Source of the DNA: a virus
Taxonomy: Duplodnaviria > Caudoviricetes
Virus record (IMG/VR): IMGVR_UViG_3300046744_000205
Span: 1-61,200 of that record
Strand: one strand, 5' to 3'
DNA length: 61,200 nt
Below, piece by piece: positions 1,884 through 20,791 of this stretch; within the stretch, counting starts at the first letter, position 1, and every line of letters starts with the position of its first letter. Both the position numbers and the translations under genes were made by a program. The notes below the pieces were generated by a model. It was not told the origin of the DNA. It was given only the letters and a program-made list of their open reading frames with translations, and ran no database searches.

Positions 1884-2106
1884 TGGTGTATGGCTCATTC
1901 TCAATCAGCATTGTAAACCCTGCTCGCTTATCGTAGTATATCTCGTCATCTTCCTTAATGACCTCTACTGTACTACCCGGCTTTACAACCTTACCCTTCT
2001 TATATCGCATCTGATTTGCATCTTCTGCTGACAACAACAACCCGGAGGAGGTTTTGATTTCCTCCTCGATTGTTTTAATCACTATATACTTTCCTATTGG
2101 TTTCAT
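1849..2106 (-). CDS. groES: Co-chaperonin GroES
   Basis: MKPIGKYIVIK...KTSSGLLL mobile loop...GKVVKPG...IISENDVVVV; coupled to groEL. Confidence 0.92.
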   Translation of the reverse strand: MKPIGKYIVIKTIEEEIKTSSGLLLSAEDANQMRYKKGKVVKPGSTVEVIKEDDEIYYDKRAGFTMLIENEPYTIISENDVVVVL

Positions 2107-3707: not shown

Positions 3708-3728
3708 ATTAAATTAAATTATTTGCAG

Positions 3729-3759
3729 CAAATATAAATAATTTTAACGAATGATCAAG
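3729..3759 (-). promoter_or_regulatory. Bacteroidota-type promoter for groEL-groES
   Basis: CTTG-N19-TATATTTG on minus strand. Confidence 0.65.
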
Positions 3760-3952
3760 TGACGATTTTCATTTTTTCTATATAGTAGTAGTAGTAGTAG
3801 TAGTAGTAGTAATTTTTTTTTCTCAATTATTTTAGGGTAAAAATCGTCAAAATCGTCAAGGTATTTGATAATCAGGCTTTTAACCTCTGAAAATCGTCAC
3901 AAAATCGTCAGAAAATCGTCAAAAATCGTCACAAAAAAGGGGATAATCGTGA
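3760..3952. repeat. Iteron module A (AATCGTCA repeats, IHF site, (TAG)n tract)
   Basis: AATCGTCA at 3842, 3851, 3892, 3903, 3914, 3924; inverted copy at 3760; AATCAG-GCTT-TTA at 3870-3882. Confidence 0.85.
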
Positions 3953-3963
3953 AATTACCCCCT
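3933..3963 (-). terminator. Possible intrinsic terminator
   Basis: GGGG-ATAAT/ATTA-CCCC imperfect stem with T run on minus strand. Confidence 0.45.
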
Positions 3964-3996
3964 ATAAACAATTAAAACACAATATAAACAAACTAT

Positions 3997-4170
3997 TTAT
4001 AGTCCGAATATTTTTGATTTTATCTCTCCCAATGCAACTCCTTGAGATAACATTGCGATTTTTTCCATCTTCTTGATGGCTTTTTTATTTTCAACAGCTT
4101 GTTGGATTCCTGTTACTCCATCTTTATTTTTTTGAAGGTGTCCCTTCAATCTATTTTTTGAATTGATCAT
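3997..4170 (-). CDS. Hypothetical protein (57 aa, MINSKNRLKGHLQ...)
   Basis: Manual translation; ATGA coupling to 4167-4316. Confidence 0.6.
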   Translation of the reverse strand: MINSKNRLKGHLQKNKDGVTGIQQAVENKKAIKKMEKIAMLSQGVALGEIKSKIFGL

Positions 4171-4316
4171 AGTTTTTGATATCTAATGTGTAAACTTAAT
4201 AAACCTAAGTACAAGATAAACTCTCCGTAGTCAAAATCCTTATCTACCCCGTAATAAGAAAAGCCTAACGCAAAACCTATCTGAAGCCTGTTCTGTAGAC
4301 TTATCTCATACTGCAT
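4167..4316 (-). CDS. Hypothetical hydrophobic protein (49 aa, MQYEISLQNRLQIGFALGFSYY...)
   Basis: Manual translation; TATATTTG 3 nt upstream of ATG. Confidence 0.65.
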   Translation of the reverse strand: MQYEISLQNRLQIGFALGFSYYGVDKDFDYGEFILYLGLLSLHIRYQKL

Positions 4317-4821
4317 ATGCAAATATAGCATTTTATCAGATATATAGAACCAACGGGTTCTAGGGTTTTTTTATAAAAAGTTTTAAAAAAGAAAAACAAT
4401 TTTTTTTTTGGCTAGGGGAGTGTCTAGTATTGTGGTCACATGGATTTTTTGGCGAATTAGTATAGGCATGGCTATCGCCATAGGCTATGGCTAGCTTTTA
4501 CGCTAGCTATACCCACCTAAACGCTGTGCCGTATGGCTGTGGCTGTGGCTGTTGTAGTTCATAGTGAACTTGCTTGCTTGCTTTGCTAGGGAATAAAGGG
4601 ATTGAGAGTTTCCGACATGTCGGAAAAGGTAAACACGCACTACAAAGGAAGATAACCCAATCACCCGTATTCACTAGGGTAAACAAAACATAGTGTTAAC
4701 ATTTGTTAAAAAAAGCTCATGGAAATAGCCTTGAGCTCATGATCAAAACTGATCAAAAATTAACATTTGTTAATGAGATATGGGCATTTTTAGCCTATTT
4801 TTAGGGTAGCATCAGAATCCT

Positions 4822-4841
4822 CTATCCACAACTTATCCACA
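4822..4841 (+). promoter_or_regulatory. Tandem DnaA boxes
   Basis: CTATCCACA (4822-4830) and perfect TTATCCACA (4833-4841), 11 bp apart. Confidence 0.65.
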
Positions 4842-4903
4842 GGGTAAAGCCTTGGAAATACTAGGAATGTGCTTTCCGATGGGTCGGAAAAGTGTCCGTT
4901 CAA

Positions 4904-4935
4904 TTTGCGTACATCAAATGTATAATGTATATTTG
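4904..4935 (+). promoter_or_regulatory. Early promoter
   Basis: TTTG-N20-TATATTTG. Confidence 0.8.
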
Positions 4936-4972
4936 TATCAAATAATTTAATAATAACATAAAAACAATTATC

Positions 4973-5740
4973 ATGAAAAAAACAATTGAAATTAAGTACA
5001 ACGACTTACTAGAAGTCAACAAAGTAAAGGCTTTCACTAGCCTAGAGAGACAAAACGAATTCGACAAATTCAAGAACATCACATTGGCGAAGTCATTAAT
5101 CATTGGTAAACATATCGCATGGTATGAAGACAAGGGTAGTGAGATGCTAGCAAATGACAACTTCAAGTTTGACTTTAGCAAAACCAAGGATGGGATTATC
5201 AAGACTGCTAAAGCGGGAGAGCAAACTTCAATGAATGCTAAAAATGAAAATTGCGAATTTGTTCACTTTTCTGCTCACTTTTATGGAATCAAAAAATCTG
5301 ATTCTTATGATGCGAGAAAGGTTTACAAGATTGACAAGAAAGTGATTGATGCTTTTCTAGAGCAAATCCAAAAAGATGACAATGCTCTAGCAATGAGAAT
5401 TTCATCGCTTATCAAATTTGCCAAGCAACTAGATGCGGGAGTTAGCCCAGAGGAACAAAATTCCGACGCGTCGGAAAAAGATGAAAGCAAAAAGGCTAGT
5501 CGCAAAGCGAATGTAGTTTTCAGAGTGGGAGCAAATCAGTTCACCGAGTTTGAAGATGGCAAGACCGAAATTAAGGGAGATGCTGAAAAGCTAATCGAGC
5601 AAGCCAAAGCAATGATAGCCAAGCTGAAAATGCAACAAGCTAGAGATGCAAAAAAGCAAGAGCAAGCCGACAAGAAAAAAGCGAAGTCTGATGCAAAGCG
5701 AGCAGAGGAACAAGCGAAGGCTGACATGGAAACGGCTTAA
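4973..5740 (+). CDS. First early protein, possible HTH DNA-binding protein with charged helical C-terminus
   Basis: 255-aa ORF with own promoter and terminator; FSAHFYGIKKSDSYDARKVY segment is HTH-like (weak). Confidence 0.75.
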   Translation: MKKTIEIKYNDLLEVNKVKAFTSLERQNEFDKFKNITLAKSLIIGKHIAWYEDKGSEMLANDNFKFDFSKTKDGIIKTAKAGEQTSMNAKNENCEFVHFSAHFYGIKKSDSYDARKVYKIDKKVIDAFLEQIQKDDNALAMRISSLIKFAKQLDAGVSPEEQNSDASEKDESKKASRKANVVFRVGANQFTEFEDGKTEIKGDAEKLIEQAKAMIAKLKMQQARDAKKQEQADKKKAKSDAKRAEEQAKADMETA

Positions 5741-5757
5741 GCCTAACCACTAACCAC

Positions 5758-5787
5758 AAGCCCACTCATTGAGTGGGCTTTTTTTTT
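5758..5787 (+). terminator. Intrinsic terminator
   Basis: AAGCCCACTC-ATT-GAGTGGGC followed by T9. Confidence 0.9.
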
Positions 5788-6039
5788 ATAATTTTTTTTT
5801 CAAAAAACTATCATATTGTATATAATACTTTGTATTATATGATATGATTTATGTTTGATTACTATGTAATCAAACTATCATCGGCGGTCGCGGGGCAGGT
5901 CGGCGGTCGCGGGCAGATCCAAAAAAGCTTTCCGACGTGTCGGAAAATTCAACATAAATTTATCAAAAAAATAAAAACCAAAATGAAAACAAAAAATCAT
6001 CAAAAATAAAAAGAAAACAAAAAGAAAACTCTACTAAAA

Positions 6040-6071
6040 TTTGGTCATGTCGTACAAATTGCGTACATTCG
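6040..6071 (+). promoter_or_regulatory. Early promoter
   Basis: TTTG-N20-TACATTCG. Confidence 0.7.
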
Positions 6072-6097
6072 TAGTATAATATTAAAAAGGAAAGAAA

Positions 6098-6250
6098 ATG
6101 AAAGAAATCATTGCACTTGTGTGGAAAGACAAAACAATCACGCACAAAAAAGGAAAAAAAGTTGTGACTCAATCAGTTGATGAGTTTATTTATCAGTCAT
6201 TAATAAACCAAGTCACTATTCCGACACGTCGGAAAAAGAAAGATAACTAA
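6098..6250 (+). CDS. Hypothetical protein (50 aa, MKEIIALVWKDK...)
   Basis: Manual translation downstream of promoter. Confidence 0.5.
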   Translation: MKEIIALVWKDKTITHKKGKKVVTQSVDEFIYQSLINQVTIPTRRKKKDN

Positions 6251-6252
6251 AG

Positions 6253-6284
6253 TTTGGTCATATGGTACAAATGCCGTACATTTG
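6253..6284 (+). promoter_or_regulatory. Early promoter
   Basis: TTTG-N20-TACATTTG. Confidence 0.8.
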
Positions 6285-6353
6285 TAGTATAATAATTAAG
6301 AAAGAAAGAAATACTAACCTTTCCGACATGTCGGAAAACAAATTAAAAACAAA

Positions 6354-6725
6354 ATGAAAATAAAACAAAATTTCGCAGATGTAGTTGACATGAAAAGCCA
6401 CCTTGACCAATTTGATTGGAGAGAAGATGAAACAAGTAACAAGCTAGTTACAAACGATTTTGAGTTATCGTACAAGGCTAAATTGACTCAAGGCTATAAT
6501 GCAGGAGCGAGGTGGCACATGCTAATGCCATCAGTTCAAATCAGAGACATAAAGACCAATGAAATATTTTATAGGTGGGACATGTCTACACTAGCAGAGT
6601 GCAGTATCTTTTTAAGATGGTACGAAGAGATAAGAGCAAAAGCAAATAGAGAAAATGCCAATTTTCGTTCACGTAACAGAGCGTCAGCATTAAATAAGTT
6701 TTTTGAAGATTATGAGAGAATGTAG
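6354..6725 (+). CDS. Hypothetical early protein
   Basis: ORF track; A-rich leader. Confidence 0.75.
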   Translation: MKIKQNFADVVDMKSHLDQFDWREDETSNKLVTNDFELSYKAKLTQGYNAGARWHMLMPSVQIRDIKTNEIFYRWDMSTLAECSIFLRWYEEIRAKANRENANFRSRNRASALNKFFEDYERM

Positions 6726-6963
6726 TATAACAAAAGAAAAAATGACTGAAGGATGGATAGATGAAGATGTCTATAAATACTTCAAGTATCAGAAAGATGT
6801 CGTTGCTTATATAAAAAAGATAATGATCGAGGACAATGCTATGGGCGTTGCCGATTGGAATACAAACCAATCTGATGATGACATTTGTGATATAGGATAC
6901 AACCACTTCAATATATATTGGACTGAGTGGGTAGATGATCCATTAGTAGAAGAAGAAGATTAA
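6703..6963 (+). CDS. Hypothetical acidic early protein
   Basis: ORF track. Confidence 0.7.
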   Translation: MKIMRECSITKEKMTEGWIDEDVYKYFKYQKDVVAYIKKIMIEDNAMGVADWNTNQSDDDICDIGYNHFNIYWTEWVDDPLVEEED

Positions 6964-6999
6964 CCTTTCCGATATGTCGGAAAACAAATAAATAAAGTT

Positions 7000-7131
7000 A
7001 TGAGTAAAAATAAACACCAATGCCCGTGGGATCTAGCCTACGAGCAGAACAAAGACAGATATACAAAGGAGCAAATAGATGAAATGCTTCTTTGTGAGAT
7101 TCAAGAATTAATATACCAAGAAAATGATTAG
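7000..7131 (+). CDS. Hypothetical protein (43 aa)
   Basis: Manual translation MSKNKHQCPWDLAY... Confidence 0.55.
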   Translation: MSKNKHQCPWDLAYEQNKDRYTKEQIDEMLLCEIQELIYQEND

Positions 7132-7360
7132 AACATTAAATTTACACTTACTACTTGTAAGTACACACTACGCAGAATTTTTTAGACACATTGCAGAGTC
7201 AAAAGGGGTAGGTTTAGGAGTATTATGCAACCAACTGATTGAGAACAACTACGATTGGGTAGACAGAGTTTTTAGTGACGAGGGTTGGAGAATTGAAGAC
7301 TTAGCACACGATTTTGTAGGACTATTAAAAGTAGACGAACATTTTTTACCAAGAATATAA
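7124..7360 (+). CDS. Hypothetical early protein
   Basis: ORF track. Confidence 0.7.
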   Translation: MIRTLNLHLLLVSTHYAEFFRHIAESKGVGLGVLCNQLIENNYDWVDRVFSDEGWRIEDLAHDFVGLLKVDEHFLPRI

Positions 7361-7392
7361 TTTGGTCACACTAAAGTAATGTACTATATTTG
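7361..7392 (+). promoter_or_regulatory. Early promoter
   Basis: TTTG-N20-TATATTTG. Confidence 0.8.
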
Positions 7393-7415
7393 TACAACAA
7401 TAAAACAATAACACA

Positions 7416-8102
7416 ATGAATTACAAGATTCCAAAGAACCTTTTAAGTAAGGGTTCGACAAACGCAAAGACAGCAAAGAACCACATCGATACGTACATAT
7501 TGTACCTATCACCTTACAATCAGAATAGCTTGGGCATCAATGTATGTCCGAAAGCAAGTGAGGGTTGTGCGAAAGCATGTTTGTTCACGGCAGGCAGGGG
7601 TAAGTTTACCAATGTACAAAACGCTAGGATAAACAAGACAGAGTACTACCTTCAAGACAAGGAGAGGTTTATACTTCAGATGGCATCAGAGTTAGTCAAG
7701 ATAAACAAGAAAGGTAAAGCCTTGATCCGACTAAACGGAACGAGCGACATCGACTTCATAGCATTACTAAAAAAGTATGCCAAGCTAGATGTATTCGACC
7801 TAAATAATCTGATATTCTATGACTACACAAAAATCATAGGCAAGGTACGCAAGTACATAGACAAGCCGTACACACTCACGTTTTCTAGAGCAGAAGACAA
7901 CGAGAACGAGATGATGCAAGCACTACACTTGGGTACAAACGTATCGGTAGTGTTCAATAGAGAACTACCAAGCACATACAGAGGTTTCAAGGTAGTAGAT
8001 GGCGACATAACAGATGTCGAGATGATGAAATATAACGGAGTAATACTTGGACTCAAAGCCAAAGGCGATGCCAAGAAAGATAAAACAGGATTTGTAGTAT
8101 GA
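7416..8102 (+). CDS. Gp88-like (radical-SAM-related) protein
   Basis: NAKTAK, CPKASEGCAKACL, RLNGTSD, FYDYTK, LTFS, GLKAKG motifs. Confidence 0.7.
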   Translation: MNYKIPKNLLSKGSTNAKTAKNHIDTYILYLSPYNQNSLGINVCPKASEGCAKACLFTAGRGKFTNVQNARINKTEYYLQDKERFILQMASELVKINKKGKALIRLNGTSDIDFIALLKKYAKLDVFDLNNLIFYDYTKIIGKVRKYIDKPYTLTFSRAEDNENEMMQALHLGTNVSVVFNRELPSTYRGFKVVDGDITDVEMMKYNGVILGLKAKGDAKKDKTGFVV

Positions 8103-8344
8103 ATAGAATTGAAAAAGCATTTGAAGAACTGAAAAGCAGAGGACTGCCCGTGTTCAAGTACGAACATACAAGCGGATATTTTCAGATAGATACAGAGAGA
8201 TTTAGTTTTAGCAAAATGCAAGAGGGGTATTACCTCGATTACTATGATCAATATTTCAATGAGAACATAGAAAAATTGCTAAACAAGTACGACCTTTATT
8301 ATGAATGGGAAAACCCTGCGGTAGTATCAATACACGATCAATAA
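8099..8344 (+). CDS. Hypothetical early protein
   Basis: ORF track; ATGA coupling. Confidence 0.7.
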   Translation: MNRIEKAFEELKSRGLPVFKYEHTSGYFQIDTERFSFSKMQEGYYLDYYDQYFNENIEKLLNKYDLYYEWENPAVVSIHDQ

Positions 8345-8390
8345 TTCCGACACGTCGGAAAAACAATAACAACTTAAAAATAAAAATAAA

Positions 8391-8765
8391 ATGCCAAAGT
8401 TAACACACGACGAATTTGACAGACACATGGGAAGAAAACGACCCATGTCTTTAGAAAACCCAAACAAACCACTTGTTTGGATTAAATGCAACGAGGTTGT
8501 CTATGTAGAAATTAATGACTACATATATTATATAGACGACTCAACTAACGAGCAAGTAATGAAGAAGTGGAAAAAATCAGAAGTAAGAATTGAAGAATTT
8601 TTAGAAGATTATAACGCTTTAATTAGCGAGTTCAATGAAGAGTTAAGCGGAATAGATGATGCTGAATTGAACTCGGAAGCTAAAACAATTAAAGATGTAC
8701 ATATAGAAAATATACAAGATGACGATTATCTCATCGAAGAGTATTACGAAATTATAAAATTATAA
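8391..8765 (+). CDS. Hypothetical acidic early protein
   Basis: ORF track. Confidence 0.7.
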   Translation: MPKLTHDEFDRHMGRKRPMSLENPNKPLVWIKCNEVVYVEINDYIYYIDDSTNEQVMKKWKKSEVRIEEFLEDYNALISEFNEELSGIDDAELNSEAKTIKDVHIENIQDDDYLIEEYYEIIKL

Positions 8766-8775
8766 AAAGATTAAA

Positions 8776-9186
8776 ATGAAATTACAAGTAAAATTAAATT
8801 TAGATTACGAGACATTTGAAAACATAGTTGTAACCGCACTTGAGGGTGGTAGTAACTATTGGTATATACTAGGCGACATAAAAGGTTGCCCGCTAAGTTT
8901 TGAGATGACCGACAAAGCACCATCAGAACGTATAGCATACGGATTGTGGCACAACAAAGATGCAGAGGTGTATATTCACGATAATGAAATGGACATATGT
9001 GATGATGGAGAAGATGATACAGAGTTGTTGGGCATACTAACATACGATAGTGTGAGAGAGAGAATGCAGTTGGCTACGGAAAACCATTTGAGTGAGTTAG
9101 AGTCAATGATAAGTGGAGATTTTGATGCGTGTACTGCCGACACATTATTTCAAGTATTAGTAATGGGAGAAGTAGTATTTGGGTAA
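8776..9186 (+). CDS. Hypothetical early protein
   Basis: ORF track; ALEGGSNYW and C-terminal DACTADTLFQ...GEVVFG. Confidence 0.75.
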   Translation: MKLQVKLNLDYETFENIVVTALEGGSNYWYILGDIKGCPLSFEMTDKAPSERIAYGLWHNKDAEVYIHDNEMDICDDGEDDTELLGILTYDSVRERMQLATENHLSELESMISGDFDACTADTLFQVLVMGEVVFG

Positions 9187-9193
9187 GGTAAAA

Positions 9194-9225
9194 TTTGGTC
9201 AAACGATGTTATTATTATATATTTG
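9194..9225 (+). promoter_or_regulatory. Early promoter
   Basis: TTTG-N20-TATATTTG. Confidence 0.8.
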
Positions 9226-9288
9226 TACAACAATTATACAACCAATCCCTTTCCGATGAGTCGGAAAGGGTACTTACCCCCAACAAAC

Positions 9289-9492
9289 ATGTATATAGAA
9301 GAATTTTTAATAGCTAAGCCAAGATATTTGTACGTTGAGATAGATGATCTTGATCTAATGTACGAAATGGATTACACAGAAGTTAAACGATTAATAAAAT
9401 GGCATAACGATATGCTTGAAACTAATTACCAAACCATCAATGAGTTCAATGATGATGAGGATTACAGAAAAATAAAAATACAATTAAAATAA
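9289..9492 (+). CDS. Hypothetical early protein
   Basis: In-frame part of track ORF 9223-9492; the TTG start in the track lies inside the promoter. Confidence 0.6.
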   Translation: MYIEEFLIAKPRYLYVEIDDLDLMYEMDYTEVKRLIKWHNDMLETNYQTINEFNDDEDYRKIKIQLK

Positions 9493-9499
9493 AAACAAT

Positions 9500-9733
9500 A
9501 TGAAAGATTTAAAAGAAGTATCAAGCGAGGACTTGAGACAAGAGTTAGAATTACGAGGTTGGTACACCCAAAACTTATGGCACGTTGATAATGTGATGGA
9601 GTTTCACGATTGCACATCAGAATATGCAATGAGATTGCTAGATTTTGTGCTAACATCAGAACACATTACAGATGAAGTGTTCCGTGATATTGATGCATTA
9701 ATAGAACAACATAAACGAAAAGATGATGAATAA
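9500..9733 (+). CDS. Hypothetical early protein
   Basis: ORF track. Confidence 0.7.
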   Translation: MKDLKEVSSEDLRQELELRGWYTQNLWHVDNVMEFHDCTSEYAMRLLDFVLTSEHITDEVFRDIDALIEQHKRKDDE

Positions 9734-10106
9734 TAATAAACTAATAGCAGAATTTATGGAGTTCCCTACTCATACAGATGCAGTAGATGATAGAACAATA
9801 GCATATTATGTTGGCGAAAGTATTATGCATACAGATAATACAGAAAATGAAAACGATTGTGATGTGTTTCATCCCGATGATATGCAATTTCACACCTCGT
9901 GGGATTGGCTGATGCCCGTAGTTGAGAAGATATTCAGTCTTGGATATCACTATGAAATAAAACCAAGATATATGATGATAAAAGAAAGGTTAAGTAATGA
10001 TGAGTCTGAAGTTGTGGTTTTTGAATCTAATTTTAAGGGTCAAAACAAATCGCAAATAGAAATCATATACAATGCAGTAATAGAATTTATAGAAAGTTAT
10101 GAATAG
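9723..10106 (+). CDS. Hypothetical early protein
   Basis: NKLIAEFM...FHTSWDWLMPVVEKI...YNAVIEFI pattern. Confidence 0.75.
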   Translation: MMNNNKLIAEFMEFPTHTDAVDDRTIAYYVGESIMHTDNTENENDCDVFHPDDMQFHTSWDWLMPVVEKIFSLGYHYEIKPRYMMIKERLSNDESEVVVFESNFKGQNKSQIEIIYNAVIEFIESYE

Positions 10107-10386
10107 ATTAATAGTATTTAAAGATGATTTTGTCTTTGTAGATGTAACAGACATTGCAAAGAGTCTTTGGGGTAAAGAAGACTTGTATGTAGTAGATGTA
10201 GATAGACAAATAGAACATCTGATTGAGAGTAATTACCAACTTAAAAATTATTTACATAGTGGAACATTAAGGGTGTGCATCGAAGGTGGACACCTACCCA
10301 CACCAAGCATTGATTGGTGGGATGATTCAGAGAAGATTACCCACGAAGGATATGTTTATGTAAGAACAAAAGATATAATAAAATGA
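10099..10386 (+). CDS. Hypothetical early protein
   Basis: ORF track. Confidence 0.7.
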   Translation: MNRLIVFKDDFVFVDVTDIAKSLWGKEDLYVVDVDRQIEHLIESNYQLKNYLHSGTLRVCIEGGHLPTPSIDWWDDSEKITHEGYVYVRTKDIIK

Positions 10387-10549
10387 ACAGAGAAAGATTA
10401 AGCATTTATGAAGAGTGTAAGATAATAGTTGCACTAGAGAGAAAAGTATTAAGTCTCAAACACGATATCCAACACGCAGGAAGTAATGCGGTGGTTAATA
10501 TGTGGGATACAGAGGTAAAAGAATTAACACAAATAATAAATAAATTAAA

Positions 10550-10765
10550 ATGAAAGTATTTGATAGCATTTATACGGCTGATGGATTTGAAATCTATTGG
10601 CTACACGACCATACAGACACCACACTACAAAATCCTGAGAATGATCTCTATCAACTCGATTACGAGTTTTATGAGGTATGTCAAGAGATAGTACAGAGCG
10701 GTGCTGACTTTGAGAATTATGTTTTTAGTGATAAACAATTAAAAGATATGCGAAATGACAAATAA
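10550..10765 (+). CDS. Hypothetical acidic early protein
   Basis: ORF track. Confidence 0.65.
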   Translation: MKVFDSIYTADGFEIYWLHDHTDTTLQNPENDLYQLDYEFYEVCQEIVQSGADFENYVFSDKQLKDMRNDK

Positions 10766-10837
10766 AAGATTAATCAAGAGGTTTGTGCTTGGGTTTATAT
10801 TATTCCAAGCGACATTAATTCTACTAACTTTTGTGTT

Positions 10838-11320
10838 ATGATTAGTAGATTTATTGTTTTTATGTTAATGTTTGTGCTAGGTTTTCCGACCCGTCGGAAA
10901 CCTAGTCACAAAACAACAGAGAGAACTATCATCTCTGTGCCTGCAAAAGACACGACGTTGTCAGATTGGGATAAGCTTATAAACGCAATCATCTACGTTG
11001 AGAGCAGAGGTAATGACTCTGCGATTGGCGATAGAGGTAAAGCAGTTGGTTGCCTACAGATACACCCTATATGTGTGAGAGAGGTTAACCGAATCTTACG
11101 CAAGAATGATATGCCATTAGTATATACGTTAGAGGATAGATACAACAGAACAAAATCTATTGAGATGTTCAATATCATAGCAGAGCAATACGAGTGCTGT
11201 GAATACATAGAGTTTATGGATTACGCAGAGATAGTAGCAAGGCGATGGAACGGAGGTCCGAGAGGACATAAAAAAAGAGCAACAATTAAATATTTTAACA
11301 AAGTAAAAAAACAATTATGA
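10838..11320 (+). CDS. Lysozyme-fold (transglycosylase/destabilase-like) protein with N-terminal hydrophobic segment
   Basis: AIIYVESRG, AVGCLQI, ARRWNGGP motifs. Confidence 0.75.
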   Translation: MISRFIVFMLMFVLGFPTRRKPSHKTTERTIISVPAKDTTLSDWDKLINAIIYVESRGNDSAIGDRGKAVGCLQIHPICVREVNRILRKNDMPLVYTLEDRYNRTKSIEMFNIIAEQYECCEYIEFMDYAEIVARRWNGGPRGHKKRATIKYFNKVKKQL

Positions 11321-11541
11321 GTAACATGAGTTATTGCAGGTTTGAAAATACTGCACGAGATTTAGAAGATTGCCTAGATGCAATCCAAAACGGAGAGATT
11401 AATGATTTAGGTAGTCAGTATGAGGTAGATGCCTTAGAACAGCTACTTGATTTATGTAGAGACGTTGTAGCATACAAAGATGAAATTCAGGATGCTATTG
11501 ACAACAACAACAACAATGATTTAGATGTAATACCACACTAA
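11317..11541 (+). CDS. Hypothetical protein (MSNMSYCRFENT...)
   Basis: ORF track; ATGA-type coupling. Confidence 0.75.
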   Translation: MSNMSYCRFENTARDLEDCLDAIQNGEINDLGSQYEVDALEQLLDLCRDVVAYKDEIQDAIDNNNNNDLDVIPH

Positions 11542-11542
11542 T

Positions 11543-11827
11543 ATGAAGTATAGAATTATTAACGACAAGACAAACGAAGTAGAATGGGAGTTATTCTCTT
11601 GGGAAGAGGCATCTGAATTGGTAGATATGGAGAAAGAATCCATCATTCAAGTGATTGAATGTAGAAAGTGTTCAAACGATGCAGATGAAAGACACGATGC
11701 GTACGGAATATCTACAGGGTATTGGTGTGATCCGTGTTATCATTCAAACAAGTATCCATATCGCAAAGACGCATATGAGACCATTGAGACGCACGGATAT
11801 GGCGAAAGGCTAGGAAATGATTACTAA
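11543..11827 (+). CDS. Putative zinc-binding protein
   Basis: CRKC...CDPC. Confidence 0.65.
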   Translation: MKYRIINDKTNEVEWELFSWEEASELVDMEKESIIQVIECRKCSNDADERHDAYGISTGYWCDPCYHSNKYPYRKDAYETIETHGYGERLGNDY

Positions 11828-11833
11828 AATAAA

Positions 11834-11864
11834 TTTGCGTACTCAAGATATTATACTATCTTTG
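11834..11864 (+). promoter_or_regulatory. Early/middle promoter
   Basis: TTTG-N19-TATCTTTG. Confidence 0.8.
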
Positions 11865-11889
11865 TACCATTATTAAACACAATATAAAA

Positions 11890-12072
11890 ATGAAAAAAGT
11901 AAAATTTAACGACAATCAGAAGAGGCAATTATCATTGTTTTTATCTGAACAATTAGAAACCTTAGAGAAGGAGAAAAGGATTGGAAGAATTCATTATAAC
12001 AATCCCGAAATTATTAAAACCATTAGGGGAGCTATTGAAGTTGGAATAGCTGAAGAGATATGGAACAGATAA
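11890..12072 (+). CDS. Hypothetical protein
   Basis: ORF track, follows promoter. Confidence 0.65.
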   Translation: MKKVKFNDNQKRQLSLFLSEQLETLEKEKRIGRIHYNNPEIIKTIRGAIEVGIAEEIWNR

Positions 12073-12091
12073 TATTAACCAATTAAACACA

Positions 12092-12484
12092 ATGAAATCA
12101 ATTAGACAACAATTATTAGATGCCAAGACATTTGGTGCAGACAAACTAGAGATTCAAAGGTTACAACAACTTTTGAATGAGGAAGAGGCTTACAGAATCG
12201 ATGAGATATTTGATGAGGAATCAGATAGTGAGTTTCAGATTAAAGAGGTAACAAATCAGTTACAAGAATTATTAATTAAGAAGAACAGAGCATATGGCAA
12301 CTCGGCACTAGAGCCATTGAACGTATTCTCAAGTCAGAACGCAGTAGATTCTCTGTGTGCTAGACTAGATGACAAGTTAAGCAGAATCAAGAACAAAGGG
12401 CTAAACGATAAGACAGAAGACACGTTATTCGATTTAGCAGGGTATTTAATATTATTAATTATAGCAAAAAATGAGCAAGACTAA
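12092..12484 (+). CDS. DUF1599/nucleotide-modification-associated domain 1-like protein
   Basis: KKNRAYGNS, RLDDKLSRI, EDTLFDLAGYLIL motifs. Confidence 0.75.
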   Translation: MKSIRQQLLDAKTFGADKLEIQRLQQLLNEEEAYRIDEIFDEESDSEFQIKEVTNQLQELLIKKNRAYGNSALEPLNVFSSQNAVDSLCARLDDKLSRIKNKGLNDKTEDTLFDLAGYLILLIIAKNEQD

Positions 12485-12615
12485 ACAATTATTAGACGAT
12501 ATGCACTCTATGGATTTTTATAGTGTGTATGCAGATTCGGAGTATTGGTACAACGAGTGGGAGAAGATCAACAGAGAGAGAGTAAACAATTCAGATAAAA
12601 TTATATTAAAAAAAA

Positions 12616-12909
12616 ATGAAACACCATAAGTTTAAAATTTACGCAGAGAGAATCGCAGAAGAGTTTGATATATCAATCAAAGCATTGTTCTGTAAAAACA
12701 AAAGCAGGAACATAGTAGACGCACGTTACATATTATATCTAACGTGTGCTAAGAAAGGATTTAAGCCGTGTGATATAGAAAGGCTTATGGCTAAAAATAA
12801 GTACAAAATCAAGCACAACAGCATTTTACATGGTATCGATGTGATGAAACAGAAGATTGAATTTGAAGATGACTACAGAGATTTAGTAGACGAATTATGT
12901 ACGATTTAG
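12616..12909 (+). CDS. DnaA domain IV-like HTH protein
   Basis: KSRNIVDARYILY...KHNSILHG resembles DnaA C-terminal R..IV.AR....Y...DH.TV.H. Confidence 0.6.
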   Translation: MKHHKFKIYAERIAEEFDISIKALFCKNKSRNIVDARYILYLTCAKKGFKPCDIERLMAKNKYKIKHNSILHGIDVMKQKIEFEDDYRDLVDELCTI

Positions 12910-13295
12910 AAGACATATTTGATCAGGCATTTACTGATAATAAATCAGTAAAAAGGATTGAGAACGGATACCAATCCGTAAGGCTACTAGACGTTAAGAT
13001 CCTTAAGGATGATTACACGCACGACATCGATTTACTTAATACAAGTAAGCGGTACTACCAAAGACTAACCGATCAGGAGTTTGATACTTTTAAAGGAAAA
13101 GGTTGGAGATATGGTGTGTATGTCGTAACTTTGTCTAACTATCGTTCAAAACTTGATAAGGTTGAGAAGAGTATTCGAGACGAAGTTAATGGTAAAGGTA
13201 GCGAGAAAACAATCAGACAATTAAAGGCAACAAGGGATTCTTTGATGTCAAATTATACACAATTAAATAATAAGTTAAATGAGCAAACAAACTAA
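12897..13295 (+). CDS. Hypothetical protein
   Basis: ORF track. Confidence 0.7.
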   Translation: MYDLEDIFDQAFTDNKSVKRIENGYQSVRLLDVKILKDDYTHDIDLLNTSKRYYQRLTDQEFDTFKGKGWRYGVYVVTLSNYRSKLDKVEKSIRDEVNGKGSEKTIRQLKATRDSLMSNYTQLNNKLNEQTN

Positions 13296-13866
13296 ACCGA
13301 GTTATGAAATCTTGTCATCTATAAACGTAAAAGACAAGGTAGAAAGAAAAGGTAGAATGGATTACCTATCGTGGGCAAATGCGTGGCATATGCTTAAGCA
13401 ACAATATCCATCAGCACAACGTATCGTATACGAAGATCCTGCAACGGGATGGAACTACTTCTCTGATGGTAGATCATCTTGGGTAAAGGTTGGGATTGTA
13501 GTTAATGATGTTGAACACATCGATTACCTACCAATTATGGACTTCCGTAACAAAGCTATTGTAGCAGACGATGTTACATCTATGGATGTCAACAAAACTA
13601 TTCAGCGTTCAACTGCTAAGGCTATTGCAATGCACGGATTAGGTCTGTCGCTTTGGAAGGGTGAGGATGTTCCTGAAATGGTAACTAAGTCAGAGCCTGT
13701 TAAAAAGATAGCACTCAAGGTTAATGATTCTAATTGGGCTAAGGTTGAGAGATATGTATTGCAGAACAAGGGTAGCTTAAATATAGATGAGATTGTTGTC
13801 AATCTATCTAAGAAGTATACCATTAATGCAACTACCAAGAAAGAACTTCAAAGGATTCTTAAGTAA
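13279..13866 (+). CDS. Single-strand annealing protein (Sak3/DUF1071-like)
   Basis: YLSWANAW, YLPIMDFRNK, NKTIQRSTAKAIAMHGLGL motifs. Confidence 0.85.
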   Translation: MSKQTKPSYEILSSINVKDKVERKGRMDYLSWANAWHMLKQQYPSAQRIVYEDPATGWNYFSDGRSSWVKVGIVVNDVEHIDYLPIMDFRNKAIVADDVTSMDVNKTIQRSTAKAIAMHGLGLSLWKGEDVPEMVTKSEPVKKIALKVNDSNWAKVERYVLQNKGSLNIDEIVVNLSKKYTINATTKKELQRILK

Positions 13867-14597
13867 TGGATGTTATTGAAATGTTACGGGATGACACCAA
13901 CTACTATGGTGACTTCGGTAAGCAGTACCTATCTAATTCAGATATAGGTACACTACTGAAAGATCCTAGTCAGTTTGGTGTTACACAAATAGACAATCCG
14001 AACTTTGCTAAGGGAAGATACTTTCATCAGTTGATACTTGAACCAAGTAAGGCAGAGAATATTGAGTATGTTACTGCAAGTACACGCACAACAAAGGTGT
14101 ATAAGGAATACTGCTTAAATAAGGGTATTCACTATGCATTACTTGAGAGTGAGGTTGAAGATATACAGAGGTTAGTTTCAAAAATGTTGAGCAACTACAC
14201 ATTCTTTGATGATATCAGAAACGAGGGCAATGAGTATGAAGTACCTGCTGTTGGTAAGATATGTGGTCAGATGTGGAAAGGAAAGGCAGATATTGTACAT
14301 CCTGATATGCTAATAGATTTGAAGACTACATCTAATATAGATGACTTTAAGTGGAGTGCAAGGAGGTATAACTACGATAGCCAAGCATACATATATCAAT
14401 CGTTGTTTAATAAACCATTAGTATTCTACGCAATAGAGAAAGGTACAGGTAGGTTAGGTATATATAGACCAACTACAGAGTTTCTTGAACGTGGAGAAGA
14501 TAAGGTTGAGAGAGCAGTAGAGGTATACAAAAAGTTTTTTGCAGAAAATGCAAAGGAAAACATTAACGACTACTATATAGAGGAGGAGTTAATTTAA
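13866..14597 (+). CDS. PD-(D/E)XK exonuclease (RecE/DUF3799-like)
   Basis: LSNS, GRYFHQLILEP, KGKADI...IDLKTT, YDSQAYIY; adjacent to SSAP. Confidence 0.85.
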   Translation: MDVIEMLRDDTNYYGDFGKQYLSNSDIGTLLKDPSQFGVTQIDNPNFAKGRYFHQLILEPSKAENIEYVTASTRTTKVYKEYCLNKGIHYALLESEVEDIQRLVSKMLSNYTFFDDIRNEGNEYEVPAVGKICGQMWKGKADIVHPDMLIDLKTTSNIDDFKWSARRYNYDSQAYIYQSLFNKPLVFYAIEKGTGRLGIYRPTTEFLERGEDKVERAVEVYKKFFAENAKENINDYYIEEELI

Positions 14598-14605
14598 TTA
14601 TGATA

Positions 14606-14673
14606 AGGTGGGTTCGTACTTCCCAATCGTACCACACCTAAATTAATTGGGATAAATTTTATATATAATTATT
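14606..14673 (+). promoter_or_regulatory. Predicted H-type pseudoknot plus AU-rich leader of putative SSB
   Basis: Stem 14606-14616/14628-14639; loop TCCCAAT pairs with ATTGGGA at 14646-14652. Confidence 0.6.
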
Positions 14674-14937
14674 ATGTCAAACGAGACAATTTTTGCAGAT
14701 GGATTCATCTTCAAGAGAAAAGAAAACGCACCTGAATTTGTAGTAGGGTCGCAATCAATTAAAGTAGAAGAGGCAATTGCATTTCTTCAAGCAAACCAAA
14801 AGAATGGATGGGTTAACCTAGACATCAAGCAGAGTAAAGGTGGCAAATATTACTGCCAACTTGATACTTGGCAACCTAAACCAAAGAAGGATGTGATGGA
14901 AGTGGTCAGCGAAAAAAGCGATGAACTGCCATTCTAA
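14674..14937 (+). CDS. Putative single-stranded DNA-binding protein
   Basis: Follows SSAP+exonuclease; acidic SDELPF C-terminus typical of SSBs. Confidence 0.6.
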   Translation: MSNETIFADGFIFKRKENAPEFVVGSQSIKVEEAIAFLQANQKNGWVNLDIKQSKGGKYYCQLDTWQPKPKKDVMEVVSEKSDELPF

Positions 14938-14958
14938 AACCCCTTAAGAATAAGTAAC

Positions 14959-15005
14959 GGGGGGTTATATTCCGACACGTCGGAAACCATAACTCCCCTT
15001 TATTT
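14959..15005 (+). terminator. Terminator-like hairpin capped by the 16-bp palindrome
   Basis: GGGGTTAT...palindrome...ATAACTCCCC then TTTATTT. Confidence 0.55.
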
Positions 15006-15016
15006 GCTCTAGTGAA

Positions 15017-15184
15017 TGACGAAAATAAAATTTCCTATACTACTACTACTACTATATATATAATTTTATTTTTTTATCTCGTATGTGTAAAAATAATCGT
15101 CAAAATCGTCAACATACTTAGTAATCAACTACTTAAGTCAAAATAATCGTCACAAAATCGTCACAACAATGGAAAAAAACGTCA
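15017..15184. repeat. Iteron module B, candidate replication origin
   Basis: AATCGTCA at 15095, 15104, 15145, 15156; inverted TGACGA at 15017; AATCAA-CTAC-TTA at 15123-15135; abuts primase-helicase start. Confidence 0.85.
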
Positions 15185-18971: not shown

Positions 18972-18973
18972 CA

Positions 18974-19363
18974 ATGAAAAGCAGAAGAAACTCTCGTGCC
19001 GGCAAGCACCCATCTTATGATAAGCTAGGTATGTCTGAAGAAAGACGTAAGAAAAAAATAGCATATGATAAGAAATACCACGCCACAAAAAAACGTAAAA
19101 AGTATCGTGCAGAACTTAATAGAAAGAACAAAGAGGAAGGTACTTATGGTAATGGTGATGGGAAGGATGCTAGTCACACAAAAGACGGACGCTTGGTTAA
19201 AGAAAAAAGAAGCAGTAATCGTGCTAGGAATGGTCAGAACGGCAAGTCCACTAAGAGAGACTTGAGTAAACCATTATCTAAAAGTAAGTTCGATCCTGCT
19301 GATTACAATAAAAATGGTTACGTCTCCAAGAAAGAACGGAGAAGGTACAACAAAAATAAATGA
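18974..19363 (+). CDS. Basic HNH-like protein with C-terminal EF-hand-like loop
   Basis: GDGKDASH...SNRARN; DYNKNGYVSKKE. Confidence 0.55.
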   Translation: MKSRRNSRAGKHPSYDKLGMSEERRKKKIAYDKKYHATKKRKKYRAELNRKNKEEGTYGNGDGKDASHTKDGRLVKEKRSSNRARNGQNGKSTKRDLSKPLSKSKFDPADYNKNGYVSKKERRRYNKNK

Positions 19364-19602
19364 CCGAACAGCAGATACAGAAGAAGAGGATAAAAGAATT
19401 AGAAGAGAAAGGATATTACGTTCTTAAGTTAGTTAAGACGAATAAGAATGGAATCCCCGATGTATTAGCAATACCACCCGGCGCTGCTGTCATATTTAGC
19501 GAGATCAAAACCAAGACAGGTAAGCTGTCAAAACTACAAGAATATAGACTAAAAGAACTTAGTACATTCGGTTTTAAAACTGAAGTGTATAGAGGTGAAT
19601 AA
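19360..19602 (+). CDS. VRR-NUC nuclease
   Basis: EQQIQ, GIPD, FSEIK, GKLSKLQ. Confidence 0.85.
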   Translation: MTEQQIQKKRIKELEEKGYYVLKLVKTNKNGIPDVLAIPPGAAVIFSEIKTKTGKLSKLQEYRLKELSTFGFKTEVYRGE

Positions 19603-19614
19603 TTAATTAATAAT

Positions 19615-19776: not shown

Positions 19777-19805
19777 AAAAAGCCCTCTTGGTCTTGAGGG
19801 CTTTT
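19777..19805 (+). terminator. Intrinsic (possibly bidirectional) terminator
   Basis: AAAAGCCCTC...GAGGGCTTTT. Confidence 0.75.
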
Positions 19806-19873
19806 AATAATGATAAAGAAATAATCCCTTTCAGGGAATAGCACAAAATTAAATTAAATAAATTAAAAAACAA

Positions 19874-20780: not shown

Positions 20781-20791
20781 AAACCACAGGG

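What the first reader, a model, noticed from the sequence alone, without database searches (positions are those of the whole stretch)
4610..14985. Eleven copies of a 16-bp palindrome mark the early region in a decaying gradient
Seen: TTCCGA-N4-TCGGAA with invariant arms at 4610, 4874, 5461, 5930, 6219, 6321, 6967, 8345, 9251, 10884 and 14970; I found none in the other 46 kb. Seven fall in the first 2.4 kb and then gaps widen to 1-4 kb. Copies lie upstream of promoters, in leaders, between genes, inside ORFs in different frames (NSDASEK at 5461; PTRRK at 6219 and 10884) and in a terminator loop, so they are selected as nucleic acid regardless of context. That is unlike ordinary operators and more like parS/matS-type domain markers. 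Inference: a site-plus-protein system acting on the DNA that enters first (pulling, membrane tethering, shielding from nucleases, or regional shut-off). Candidate binders: the first early protein 4973-5740, which contains a site itself, the wHTH 1431-1883, or an ejected virion protein. This is my best candidate for an undescribed system.
Basis: partly seen in the sequence, partly recalled or inferred. Interest (0 to 1): 0.85.

Follow-up and report, generated by a model that had tools for sequence, protein, structure and literature searches.

The report
Lineage-specific palindromes with candidate phage binder
A marine phage carries eleven copies of one 16-base palindrome in its early genes, and related phages carry their own versions only when they also encode one unknown first early protein, which points to an undescribed phage gene-control protein and its sites.

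Summary
There are 11 exact TTCCGA-N4-TCGGAA sites, with 0 expected by chance, all at 4610-14985 of a complete 61.2-kb phage genome.

The feature belongs to a whole phage family. Of 80 relatives fetched through the primase, 29 carry their own repeated palindrome in the same region: GTGTC-N6-GACAC in two variants, GTCTC-N6-GAGAC, or GTCGT-NN-ACGAC. Closer relatives keep TTCCGA-N4-TCGGAA. Between the window and a relative whose first early protein is 64% identical, the arms match at 84 of 84 positions, the spacer at 17 of 28 and the flanks at 420 of 560.

The palindromes co-occur with one unannotated protein, the first early gene product (window 4973-5740). It is found in 23 of 27 palindrome-bearing records and 1 of 23 palindrome-free records. 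It is predicted to form a homodimer.

Best reading (about 0.5): these are double-stranded DNA operators of this dimeric regulator, acting on early transcription. This works like stoperators or KorB-OB, in an apparently lytic phage with a new protein family.

Main rival (about 0.25): RNA hairpins read on the sense strand.

The winged-helix candidate at 1380-1883 is rejected. The "DNA that enters first" idea has no support.

The parts
4610..4625 (.). Site 1, TTCCGACATGTCGGAA. It lies in the 640-base non-coding region upstream of the early operon. A palindrome sits at the matching position in relatives of other classes.
4874..4889 (.). Site 2, TTCCGATGGGTCGGAA, centred about 60 bases upstream of the inferred start of promoter P1.
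4905..4935 (+). P1, a Bacteroidota-type promoter match (TTG-N20-TATATTTG) in front of the first early gene. This is a consensus match only.
4973..5740 (+). First early gene. It encodes a 255-aa protein of an unannotated family that co-occurs with the palindromes and is predicted to form a homodimer. It is the candidate binder.
5461..5476 (.). Site 3, inside the first early gene. It encodes NSDASEK in the predicted disordered linker.
5930..5945 (.). Site 4, downstream of a terminator-like hairpin (about 5758-5787) and of a promoter match at 5830-5857.
6219..6234 (.). Site 5, at the 3' end of the small ORF 6098-6250, about 64 bases upstream of the inferred start of promoter 6254-6284.
6321..6336 (.). 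Site 6, in the leader of gene 6354-6725. It is about +30 to +45 from the inferred start, and 17 bases separate it from the ATG.
6967..6982 (.). Site 7, between the stop codon at 6963 and the ATG at 7000.
8345..8360 (.). Site 8, directly after the stop codon at 8344, with 30 bases before the ATG at 8391.
9251..9266 (.). Site 9, in a leader about +19 to +34 from promoter match 9195-9225. Flanking CCCT/AGGG extends the dyad.
10884..10899 (.). Site 10, near the 5' end of ORF 10838-11320, at the tip of a hairpin of about 20 bp.
14970..14985 (.). Site 11, in the loop of the terminator-like hairpin (14959-15005) between gene 14674-14937 and the primase gene. A palindrome of the relative's own class sits in this gap in other classes, and the gap is empty in relatives that lack the protein.

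Best explanation
The 16-base palindromes are double-stranded DNA binding sites (operators) for a phage-encoded, sequence-specific regulator. The regulator is most likely the product of the first early gene (4973-5740). It would bind as a symmetric dimer, with one helix-turn-helix-like unit on each 6-base arm; the arm centres are 10 bases apart. Host RNA polymerase starts the early operon at Bacteroidota-type promoters. As the first early protein accumulates, it occupies sites upstream of promoters, in leaders and at gene junctions, and it changes early transcription. The most likely effect is damping or shut-off, by promoter-proximal repression and by blocking elongation. Each phage lineage has its own site and protein variant. 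Shown here: the sites, their conservation, the family-wide pattern, and the co-occurrence with the protein. Inferred: that the protein binds, that it binds DNA and not RNA, and the direction of the effect.
For: 1. Non-random and constrained. There are 11 sites against 0 expected. Between the window and L238 the arms match at 84 of 84 positions, the spacer at 17 of 28, and 40-base flanks at 420 of 560. Sites are gained and lost at individual junctions.
2. Family-wide pattern with changing specificity. Of the 80 primase-linked loci, 29 carry 3 to 13 copies of their own palindrome in the same region: 17 with GTGTCYT-NN-ARGACAC, 4 with GTGTCG-type, 3 with GTCTC-N6-GAGAC and 5 with GTCGT-NN-ACGAC. 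Positions are kept while the sequence differs. Examples are the gap before the primase and the non-coding region upstream of the first early gene.
3. Co-occurrence. A profile of the first early protein family hits 24 of 50 whole records. These are 23 of 27 palindrome-bearing records and 1 of 23 palindrome-free records; that one hit covers only the N-terminal part of the profile. The 4 misses are records that are 64 to 84% complete. Scanned genome-wide, 6 of 6 protein-positive complete genomes have 10 to 18 dispersed palindromes and 0 of 5 protein-negative ones have any. It is the only gene family found in all five classes, in 19 of 27 positive loci and 0 of 19 negative loci.
4. Not just linkage. 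In the primase tree, lineages with and without the pair are interleaved. L161 keeps the same ordered early genes as its class-A relatives but lacks the protein and every palindrome, including the one at the conserved junction before the primase, about 9 kb away.
5. The protein. The window protein is a remote homologue of the family (hhalign probability 93.7%, E 2e-7). The AlphaFold models show a helical N-terminal domain with a helix-turn-helix-like pair (residues 96-104 and 108-118), a disordered acidic linker and a long C-terminal helix. The residues after the nearly invariant Ser109 differ by palindrome class.
6. Dimer. For two copies, complex prediction scored 0.71 against a best control of 0.00 out of 3 controls. 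That mark was reached by 20 of 30 proteins solved as pairs of one chain and by 1 of 23 solved as single chains. The runs agree in at least 48% of contacts, and the partner's pLDDT is at least 59. The interface (residues 5-65 and 180-225) leaves the helix-turn-helix-like part free.
7. Geometry and variation fit DNA read-out. The arms are invariant, the centre is variable, and the copies show no compensatory changes in the arms. In the GTGTC class, the pair next to the centre occurs as T-A, C-G, T-G and also as the non-pairing C-A on the sense strand. That fits independent half-sites, not a stem.
8. Position. Sites 4610 and 4874 lie upstream of the only promoter match in the divergent non-coding region, so they are probably not in early RNA. 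This last point is an inference.
Against: No binding has been shown, and the protein has no recognisable DNA-binding family. Pfam, PHROGs, the PDB by sequence, and Foldseek against PDB and BFVD all gave nothing significant. The best fold leads for the N-terminal domain are ParB (E 2.0, probability 0.14) and SopB-DNA (E 9.9), neither significant.

The site centre is not oriented at random, which a symmetric dimer on DNA does not explain. In this class the spacer is always Y-N-N-G on the sense strand, giving C-G or T-G and never C-A, and L238 has 7 of 8 sites as CACG. In five GTGTC-class genomes the centre reads CA on the inferred sense strand in the majority. My tally is about 47 against 15. 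The strand map is crude and homologous sites are counted more than once. The bias includes late-region sites that lie on the other DNA strand.

Many sites sit 17 to 37 bases before a start codon. Three of the 11 sites sit at the tip of longer hairpins.

Co-occurrence is partly confounded by shared descent and by exchange of early-region modules. The classing of these genes as 'early' rests on gene order and promoter matches only.
Confidence: 0.5

Rival explanations
1. The palindromes act as RNA hairpins in the early polycistronic transcripts. Each would have a 6-bp stem and a Y-N-N-G tetraloop, and a phage protein would read them to control processing, stability, anti-termination or translation of the next gene. 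That protein could again be the first early protein.
For: The spacer is Y-N-N-G on the sense strand in all copies seen. That gives C-G or the wobble-compatible U-G and never C-A. The centre orientation follows the direction of transcription in five GTGTC-class genomes, including late genes on the other strand. Most copies lie between genes, often 17 to 37 bases before the ATG. Three of the 11 copies extend into long hairpins of -16 to -22 kcal/mol. A palindrome-free lineage (L217) has variable-sequence hairpins at the same kind of junction. The early region appears in RNA libraries, though at low depth and with DNA carry-over not excluded.
Against: The stems are invariant and the loops vary, which is the reverse of most protein-RNA hairpin recognition. 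No arm covariation is seen among copies. The bare hairpin is weak at -5.5 kcal/mol. In the GTGTC class a non-pairing C-A is common next to the centre, which leaves a 5-bp stem. Two conserved sites lie upstream of the only promoter match. Flank complementarity is absent for most sites. There is no Rfam match. The wobble asymmetry rests on about four independent changes.
Confidence: 0.25
2. The sites are DNA marks for a ParB/KorB-like or organising function, and not for simple repression. A protein would load at them and spread or slide from the region next to a candidate origin. The role could be in replication, compaction, protection or DNA entry.
For: The sites are 16-bp palindromes clustered next to a non-coding region with DnaA-box-like words and iterons. 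One site lies inside the candidate binder's own gene. The best fold leads, though not significant, are the ParB and SopB DNA-binding domains. KorB sites can lie kilobases from their promoters (PMC11790492, passages read).
Against: No ParB N-terminal domain is found in the genome or in the protein. No physical genome end or entry polarity is known. Relatives have sites spread through the late region too. The fold leads have E values of 2 or more.
Confidence: 0.1
3. The sites are selfish or recombination-promoting short repeats, like the PeSL cassettes of T4-type phages or like REP elements. They would spread among gene junctions without a dedicated regulatory role.
For: Sites are gained and lost at junctions. 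Some copies share longer flanks: 6321 and 6967 share about 35 bases. The promoter region is duplicated at about 6040 and 6254. The phage encodes a Sak-type annealing protein and an exonuclease. PeSLs are described as small composite terminator/promoter repeats that mediate gene shuffling (PMC4122927, abstract read).
Against: A 16-bp repeat is short for homologous exchange. The arms are perfectly conserved across relatives whose first early protein is 64% identical, while the flanks diverge. There are no degenerate copies. The strict link to one protein family and the class switching at kept positions need a reader of the sequence.
Confidence: 0.07
4. The sites are recognised by a host factor, a Flavobacteriia regulator whose regulon the phage borrows.
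For: The early promoters are of host type, and borrowing host regulators is common in phages. The second point is general knowledge and was not tested here.
Against: The palindrome changes among close phage lineages. It is present only where one phage protein is present. A scan of 185,579 species genomes for the 18-base form gave scattered single hits in unrelated taxa and no Flavobacteriia cluster among the rows listed.
Confidence: 0.04
5. The sites are hairpin promoters for a virion-carried RNA polymerase, as in phage N4. The 2965-aa protein would be that polymerase.
For: The hairpins have a lineage-specific sequence and lie upstream of early genes. The late module ends in a giant ORF of unknown function. 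The properties of N4 are recalled and come from no call.
Against: The giant ORF gave no Pfam, PHROG or PDB hit and matched none of the polymerase motifs that I tried. No T7-type polymerase domain was found, although that search's control was uninformative. The giant ORF family occurs in palindrome-free relatives as well: 24 of its 39 loci carry none of the A, B, C or T palindromes. Host-type promoters precede the early genes. Some sites lie inside genes and in a terminator loop.
Confidence: 0.02

Closest known systems
Stoperators and the immunity repressor of Cluster A mycobacteriophages (L5 gp71 type)
   Same: Both have many copies of one short site spread over the phage genome, in promoter regions and in short gaps between genes. 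Both show an orientation that correlates with transcription, and both have lineage-specific site and protein pairs (PMC9283540, passages read; PMC6550527, search listing only).
   Different: Stoperators are 13-base asymmetric sites bound by a monomer with two DNA-binding domains, in temperate phages. Here the sites are 12- to 16-base palindromes and the candidate binder is a predicted homodimer of an unrelated, unannotated family. No integrase or resolvase was found, and the copies are concentrated in the early region.
KorB and its OB operators on plasmid RK2, and ParB-parS more generally
   Same: Both have a palindromic site in many copies at mixed distances from promoters, some far from any promoter, bound by a dimeric helix-turn-helix protein that acts as a global regulator (PMC11790492, passages read). 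The number of OB sites, 12, and their position classes are recalled and come from no call.
   Different: KorB is a ParB-family CTP-dependent clamp. No ParB N-terminal domain is found here, and no ParA or KorA partner was identified. The fold resemblance to the ParB and SopB DNA-binding domains is not significant.
Lambda N protein and boxB (nut) hairpins
   Same: In both, the first early gene product reads a short hairpin with a lineage-specific sequence in early transcripts. This is recalled knowledge and comes from no call.
   Different: Lambda has about two nut sites per genome, which are recognised through the loop by a small arginine-rich peptide. Here there are 11 copies with variable loops and invariant stems, and two copies lie upstream of the promoter.
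PeSL cassettes of T4-type phages
   Same: Both are repeated short regulatory motifs at the junctions of small, variable early genes (PMC4122927, abstract read).
   Different: PeSLs are composite promoter plus stem-loop units thought to act through recombination. Here the promoters are separate, the 16-base unit stands alone, and it is tied to one protein family.
D29 Gp36, a MerR-type repressor of a lytic mycobacteriophage
   Same: It is a phage-encoded DNA-binding repressor that tunes early and late genes downstream of its site in a lytic phage (PMC12266134, abstract read).
   Different: Gp36 binds GC-rich direct repeats and belongs to the MerR family. Here there are many dispersed palindromes, and no MerR or other known family is detected.

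Membership tests
Stoperator system (Cluster A mycobacteriophage repressor) | Asymmetric 13-base site bound by a monomer | tested here: not met
   The sites are dyad-symmetric, and the candidate binder is predicted to be a homodimer.
Stoperator system (Cluster A mycobacteriophage repressor) | Many sites in promoters and short intergenic gaps, oriented with transcription | tested here: met
   The orientation can be read only from the site centre. It is biased but not absolute (about 47 against 15 in five relatives, by a crude strand map).
Stoperator system (Cluster A mycobacteriophage repressor) | Homology of the binder to the L5 gp71-type repressor | tested here: not met
   No match to any PDB chain by sequence, and the solved repressor is in the PDB. 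No significant fold match.
Stoperator system (Cluster A mycobacteriophage repressor) | Blocks transcription elongation when bound | not testable with these tools
   This needs a reporter assay or in vitro transcription.
ParB/KorB with parS/OB | ParB N-terminal (CTP-binding) domain | tested here: not met
   PF02195 is absent from the genome, and the protein has no Pfam hit.
ParB/KorB with parS/OB | Palindromic site of 13 to 16 bases in several copies, bound by a dimer | tested here: inconclusive
   The sites are present and the dimer prediction passes, but binding has not been shown.
ParB/KorB with parS/OB | ParB-type helix-turn-helix DNA-binding fold | tested here: inconclusive
   The best Foldseek leads are 7o0n (ParB, E 2.0, probability 0.14) and 3mkz (SopB-DNA, E 9.9). 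Neither is significant.
N4-type hairpin promoters | Virion RNA polymerase encoded by the phage | tested here: not met
   The giant ORF has no family, PDB or motif match. The PF00940 search was negative, but its control was uninformative.
N4-type hairpin promoters | Transcripts start a fixed short distance downstream of the hairpin | not testable with these tools
   Only assembled contigs of RNA runs were available.
REP elements with RAYT transposase | An HUH/tyrosine transposase gene accompanies the repeats | tested here: not met
   No such family was found among the proteins scanned. Not every small ORF was scanned.
Known RNA families (Rfam 15) | Match of the sites to a curated covariance model | tested here: not met
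   The one match in 3700-15300 is a sub-threshold hit on a terminator at 5721-5786, not on a site.
PeSL cassettes | Composite early promoter plus stem-loop in one repeated unit | tested here: not met
   The promoter matches are separate from the sites and lie at varied distances. Most sites have no shared flanks.

The most novel reading that the evidence does not exclude
The palindromes and the first early protein form a lineage-switchable 'punctuation' system that is read in the direction of transcription. The reading would be either of RNA hairpins or of polar DNA roadblocks. The system would time or partition the early polycistronic transcripts of lytic marine phages. At least five natural specificities exist (TTCCGA, GTGTCYT, GTGTCG, GTCTC and GTCGT arms), carried by a protein fold with no known relative. 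A variant of this reading: because both gene arms diverge from a candidate origin, the orientation could instead follow replication direction, which would make the sites polar marks for the replication fork.
Probability: 0.25. Interest if true: 0.8.

Novelty: new variant of a known kind. Interest (0 to 1): 0.62.

Why it matters
If the reading is right, a widespread group of uncultured marine phages controls its early genes with a dispersed operator set and a regulator from a protein family that has no annotation and no known fold relative. These phages have genomes of about 60 kb, 215 relatives were detected through one gene, and the window's early region was held by 20 of the 21 sequencing runs listed, from 11 studies.

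The family offers at least five natural site and protein specificities. That gives a ready-made test bed for how DNA or RNA recognition codes switch, and possibly a set of orthogonal regulators for Bacteroidota genetics.

It would also extend the stoperator and KorB logic, in which many identical sites sit at mixed positions, to an apparently lytic phage. Gene timing in Bacteroidota phages is poorly understood.

Tried and rejected
1. Same motif elsewhere. Scans of IMG/VR for the 17- and 18-base forms gave only single, unrelated hits. No locus had a cluster. A megablast of 4400-15200 against 50,697 phage records gave no match.

2. Relatives found through the 228-aa gene (5 loci) had no motif and no repeated palindrome. 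A search of viral contigs with the first early protein found nothing. Metagenome contigs did give relatives.

3. Winged-helix protein 1380-1883 as the binder: rejected. It is a core gene in 34 of 50 records and in 24 of 25 near-complete ones.

4. Giant ORF as a virion RNA polymerase: nothing supports it.

5. Annotation of the first early protein. Pfam, PHROGs, the PDB by sequence, Foldseek against PDB and BFVD, and the ESM Atlas gave no usable name. The Atlas row 'translation repressor' scored 0.89, which is below the level the tool calls a lead.

6. RNA evidence. Four RNA runs hold parts of the region, but only as short, low-depth contigs. They show no ends, strand or processing and cannot exclude DNA carry-over. 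Nothing is concluded from covered or uncovered parts.

7. Flank complementarity as a general feature: rejected. Most sites have none, and for most genomes the mean extension is near the random control.

8. Other early families, such as the 316-aa and 357-aa proteins, also track some classes. They are absent from the window's class and from the GTCTC class.

9. SSB-like small protein (14674-14937): it is widespread and not specific.

10. Temperate lifestyle: no tyrosine integrase or serine recombinase domain was found.

12. Paper searches found no description of these palindromes or of this phage group. Supplementary files were not opened.

Full report
**Observation.** Dinucleotide-preserving shuffles give none. 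The window is a whole virus record of 61,200 bases with an estimated completeness of 100, so the restriction to 4610-14985 holds for the full genome. Allowing two mismatches adds only two unrelated hits, against 1.16 expected. The copies are therefore all-or-none. On the + strand the spacer reads Y-N-N-G in 11 of 11 copies. The base after the site is A in 11 of 11, and the base before it is T in 7 of 11.

**Genome context.** All sites lie in the + strand block 4400-22100. That block encodes small unknown proteins, a Sak-type annealing protein, an exonuclease, a primase-helicase, a helicase and nucleases. The rest of the genome is on the - strand and holds the terminase, portal, structural proteins and a 2965-aa ORF. 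Calling the + strand block 'early' is an inference from this layout.

The nearest named phages, all distant, infect Flavobacterium, Polaribacter, Cellulophaga, Maribacter and Tenacibaculum. Matches to the Bacteroidota promoter consensus with a fixed spacing (TTG-N20-TAnnTTTG) lie in the gene gaps at 4905-4935, 6254-6284, 7362-7392 and 9195-9225, with looser-spaced ones at 5830-5857 and 11835-11864.

Relative to these promoter matches the sites sit at mixed positions:
- about -60 (4874) and about -64 (6219);
- +19 to +45 in leaders (6321, 9251) and about +66 (5930);
- at junctions without a promoter (6967, 8345);
- inside ORFs (5461, 10884);
- in the loop of the terminator-like hairpin before the primase gene (14970);
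- about 325 bases upstream of the first promoter (4610).

The 'gradient' follows the distribution of open junctions. Genes between about 9.5 and 14.6 kb mostly abut or overlap.

**The same motif elsewhere.** Scans of IMG/VR for the extended motif gave only single, unrelated hits. A scan of one genome per prokaryote species gave scattered single hits in unrelated taxa.

Metagenome contigs found through the first early protein do carry the motif. Their protein identity to the window runs from 100% down to 63%, and they hold 3 to 11 copies per contig with invariant arms. I compared seven homologous sites between the window and L238, whose first early protein is 64% identical. The arms match at 84 of 84 positions, the spacers at 17 of 28, and the 40-base flanks at 420 of 560. 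Sites also turn over. L238 has a site in the leader of the 228-aa gene where the window has none, and the in-ORF site is lost in L238 and L239.

**A family-wide pattern.** The primase-helicase has 215 relatives in IMG/VR, of which 80 loci were kept. A de novo scan shows that many carry a different palindrome in 3 to 13 copies in the same region:
- 17 loci with GTGTCYT-NN-ARGACAC;
- 4 loci with a GTGTCG-type site;
- 3 loci with GTCTC-N6-GAGAC;
- 5 loci with GTCGT-NN-ACGAC.

Positions are kept while the sequence changes. The gap between the small SSB-like gene and the primase holds TTCCGACACGTCGGAA in the window and the relative's own palindrome in the GTGTC classes. It holds none in relatives without a palindrome family. 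The non-coding region upstream of the first early gene holds one palindrome at a matching place in three classes.

In five complete GTGTC-class genomes there are 10 to 18 sites. Roughly half to two-thirds lie in the early/replication block. The rest are scattered, mostly in gene gaps just after a stop codon and 17 to 40 bases before the next start. The confinement to one block is therefore a trait of the window's lineage, not of the system.

**Which gene goes with the palindromes.** I clustered all ORFs of the loci. Only one family is found in every palindrome class and in no palindrome-free locus (19 of 27 against 0 of 19). It is the first gene after the divergent non-coding region.

The window's 255-aa protein (4973-5740) did not cluster with it by BLAST, but it is a remote homologue (hhalign probability 93.7%, E 2e-7; alignment). 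A profile search of 50 whole records found the family in 24. These are 23 of the 27 palindrome-bearing records and 1 of the 23 without palindromes, and that single match covers only the N-terminal part of the profile. The four misses are records 64 to 84% complete.

Scanned genome-wide, 6 of 6 protein-positive complete genomes have a dispersed palindrome family and 0 of 5 protein-negative complete genomes have one. The only repeated palindromes in the negatives are 9-base-period collagen-like coding repeats.

In the primase tree, lineages with and without the pair are interleaved. L161 shares the ordered early genes of its class-A relatives but lacks both the protein and every palindrome, including the one before the primase. 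That argues against mere physical linkage. Descent and module exchange still inflate the raw counts.

I reject it.

**The protein.** It has no Pfam, PHROG or PDB relative. AlphaFold models have mean pLDDT of 78 and 75. They give a helical N-terminal domain with a helix-turn-helix-like pair (96-104 and 108-118), a disordered acidic linker that contains the in-ORF site, a small hairpin and a long C-terminal helix.

Foldseek finds nothing significant. The best leads for the N-terminal domain are ParB (E 2.0, probability 0.14) and the SopB DNA-binding domain on DNA (E 9.9). I treat these as leads only.

Two copies of the protein pass the complex test. The score is 0.71, against a best control of 0.00 out of 3 controls. 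That mark was reached by 20 of 30 proteins solved as pairs of one chain and by 1 of 23 solved as single chains. The runs agree in at least 48% of contacts, and the partner's pLDDT is at least 59. The predicted interface leaves the helix-turn-helix-like part free. The residues after the nearly invariant Ser109 differ by palindrome class.

**DNA or RNA.** These points favour DNA:
- The arms are invariant, the centre varies, and there are no compensatory arm changes.
- In the GTGTC class, the pair next to the centre appears as T-A, C-G, T-G and the non-pairing C-A on the sense strand.
- Most sites have no flank complementarity.
- The bare hairpin is weak at -5.5 kcal/mol.
- Two conserved sites lie upstream of the only promoter match.
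- The candidate binder is predicted to be a symmetric dimer.

These points favour RNA, or at least a transcription-oriented reading:
- The sense-strand Y-N-N-G spacer gives C-G or U-G and never C-A.
- L238 has 7 of 8 sites as CACG.
- In five GTGTC-class genomes the centre reads CA on the inferred sense strand about 47 times against 15. This tally includes late-region sites on the other DNA strand. It uses a crude strand map and counts homologous sites repeatedly.
- Sites are often close to start codons.
- Three of the 11 sites sit atop long hairpins.

Rfam has no match. The RNA runs that hold the phage are only low-depth contigs and say nothing about ends. I put DNA operators at about 0.5 and RNA hairpins at about 0.25.

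**Comparison with known systems.** In how it works, this is closest to the stoperators of Cluster A mycobacteriophages. Those have many sites in promoters and short gene gaps, oriented with transcription and specific to each lineage (PMC9283540). It also resembles KorB with its OB palindromes on RK2, which can lie kilobases from the promoters they control (PMC11790492).

It is not a member of either family. The sites are palindromic where stoperators are asymmetric. The binder is a predicted dimer of an unrelated family. No ParB domain is present. No integrase or resolvase was found, so the phage looks lytic. PeSL cassettes (PMC4122927), lambda N and boxB (recalled) and N4 hairpin promoters (recalled) share single features but fail on others.

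My paper searches found no description of these palindromes or of this phage group. Supplementary files were not consulted.

**Verdict.** It is one instance of a family-wide system that switches specificity between lineages and is tied to one unannotated first early protein. The mechanism remains inferred. The entry-polarity idea has no support. I rate it a new variant of a known kind, with interest 0.62.

Noticed in passing
window 3783-3931 and 15038-15163: Two similar modules. Each has a trinucleotide run ((TAG)9 at 3783-3809; (TAC)5 at 15038-15052) followed by AATCGTCA iterons (6 copies at 3842-3931; 4 copies at 15095-15163, ending just before the primase ATG). Relatives keep this layout before their primase, with their own iteron word (AATCAACA or AATCGACA). 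Two proteins carry a DnaA C-terminal helix-turn-helix: 19874-20503 (E 1.7e-16) and 12616-12909 (weak, below the Pfam cut-off). They may be the readers of the iterons.
   Followed up: partly
window 4332-4972: The 640-base non-coding region between the divergent gene blocks holds DnaA-box-like words (TATCCACA at 4823, TTATCCACA at 4833), TTAACATTTGTTAA twice (4696, 4760), an A/T-rich stretch and GC-rich short repeats. The box words are kept in L236 and L237. It is a candidate replication origin.
   Followed up: partly
window 22331-31228 (- strand): A 2965-aa ORF at the end of the late block has no Pfam, PHROG or PDB hit. The family occurs in 39 of the loci examined, with or without palindromes.
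   Followed up: partly
window 2103-3707 (- strand): A phage-encoded GroEL-like chaperonin (PHROG 5725, E 1.8e-139).
   Followed up: no
L217:781-4875: A palindrome-free relative has ten gene junctions built from a variable-sequence hairpin followed by a conserved leader of about 30 bases (GTCAGTTACAAAC...ATG). This is a different solution at the same kind of junction.
   Followed up: partly
L227:2213-4620: Four copies of a structured element of about 60 bases lie before genes. By eye it resembles an acceptor stem plus a T-arm-like hairpin, so it may be a tRNA-like processing signal.
   Followed up: no
L291:2219-2404: An Odoribacteraceae genome bin has the same 18-base palindrome five times at a 42-base period. 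It is a tandem array unrelated to the phage.
   Followed up: no
window 14674-14937: An 87-aa protein ending in an acidic tail with LPF. It is conserved before the primase in 54 loci. The tail is reminiscent of SSB C-terminal tips; that resemblance is recalled and was not tested.
   Followed up: no
window 5882-5913; 6040-6095 and 6254-6300: A GC-rich direct repeat (CGGCGGTCGCGGG twice) lies just before site 5930 in a genome of about 35% G+C. A promoter-like stretch is duplicated before two small genes.
   Followed up: no
G005:36655-38100; G011:263-2010; also G014: Dense GGACC-N4-GGTCC and GGTCC-N4-GGACC words at a 9-base period are collagen-like coding repeats. They can be mistaken for a palindrome family.
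   Followed up: no
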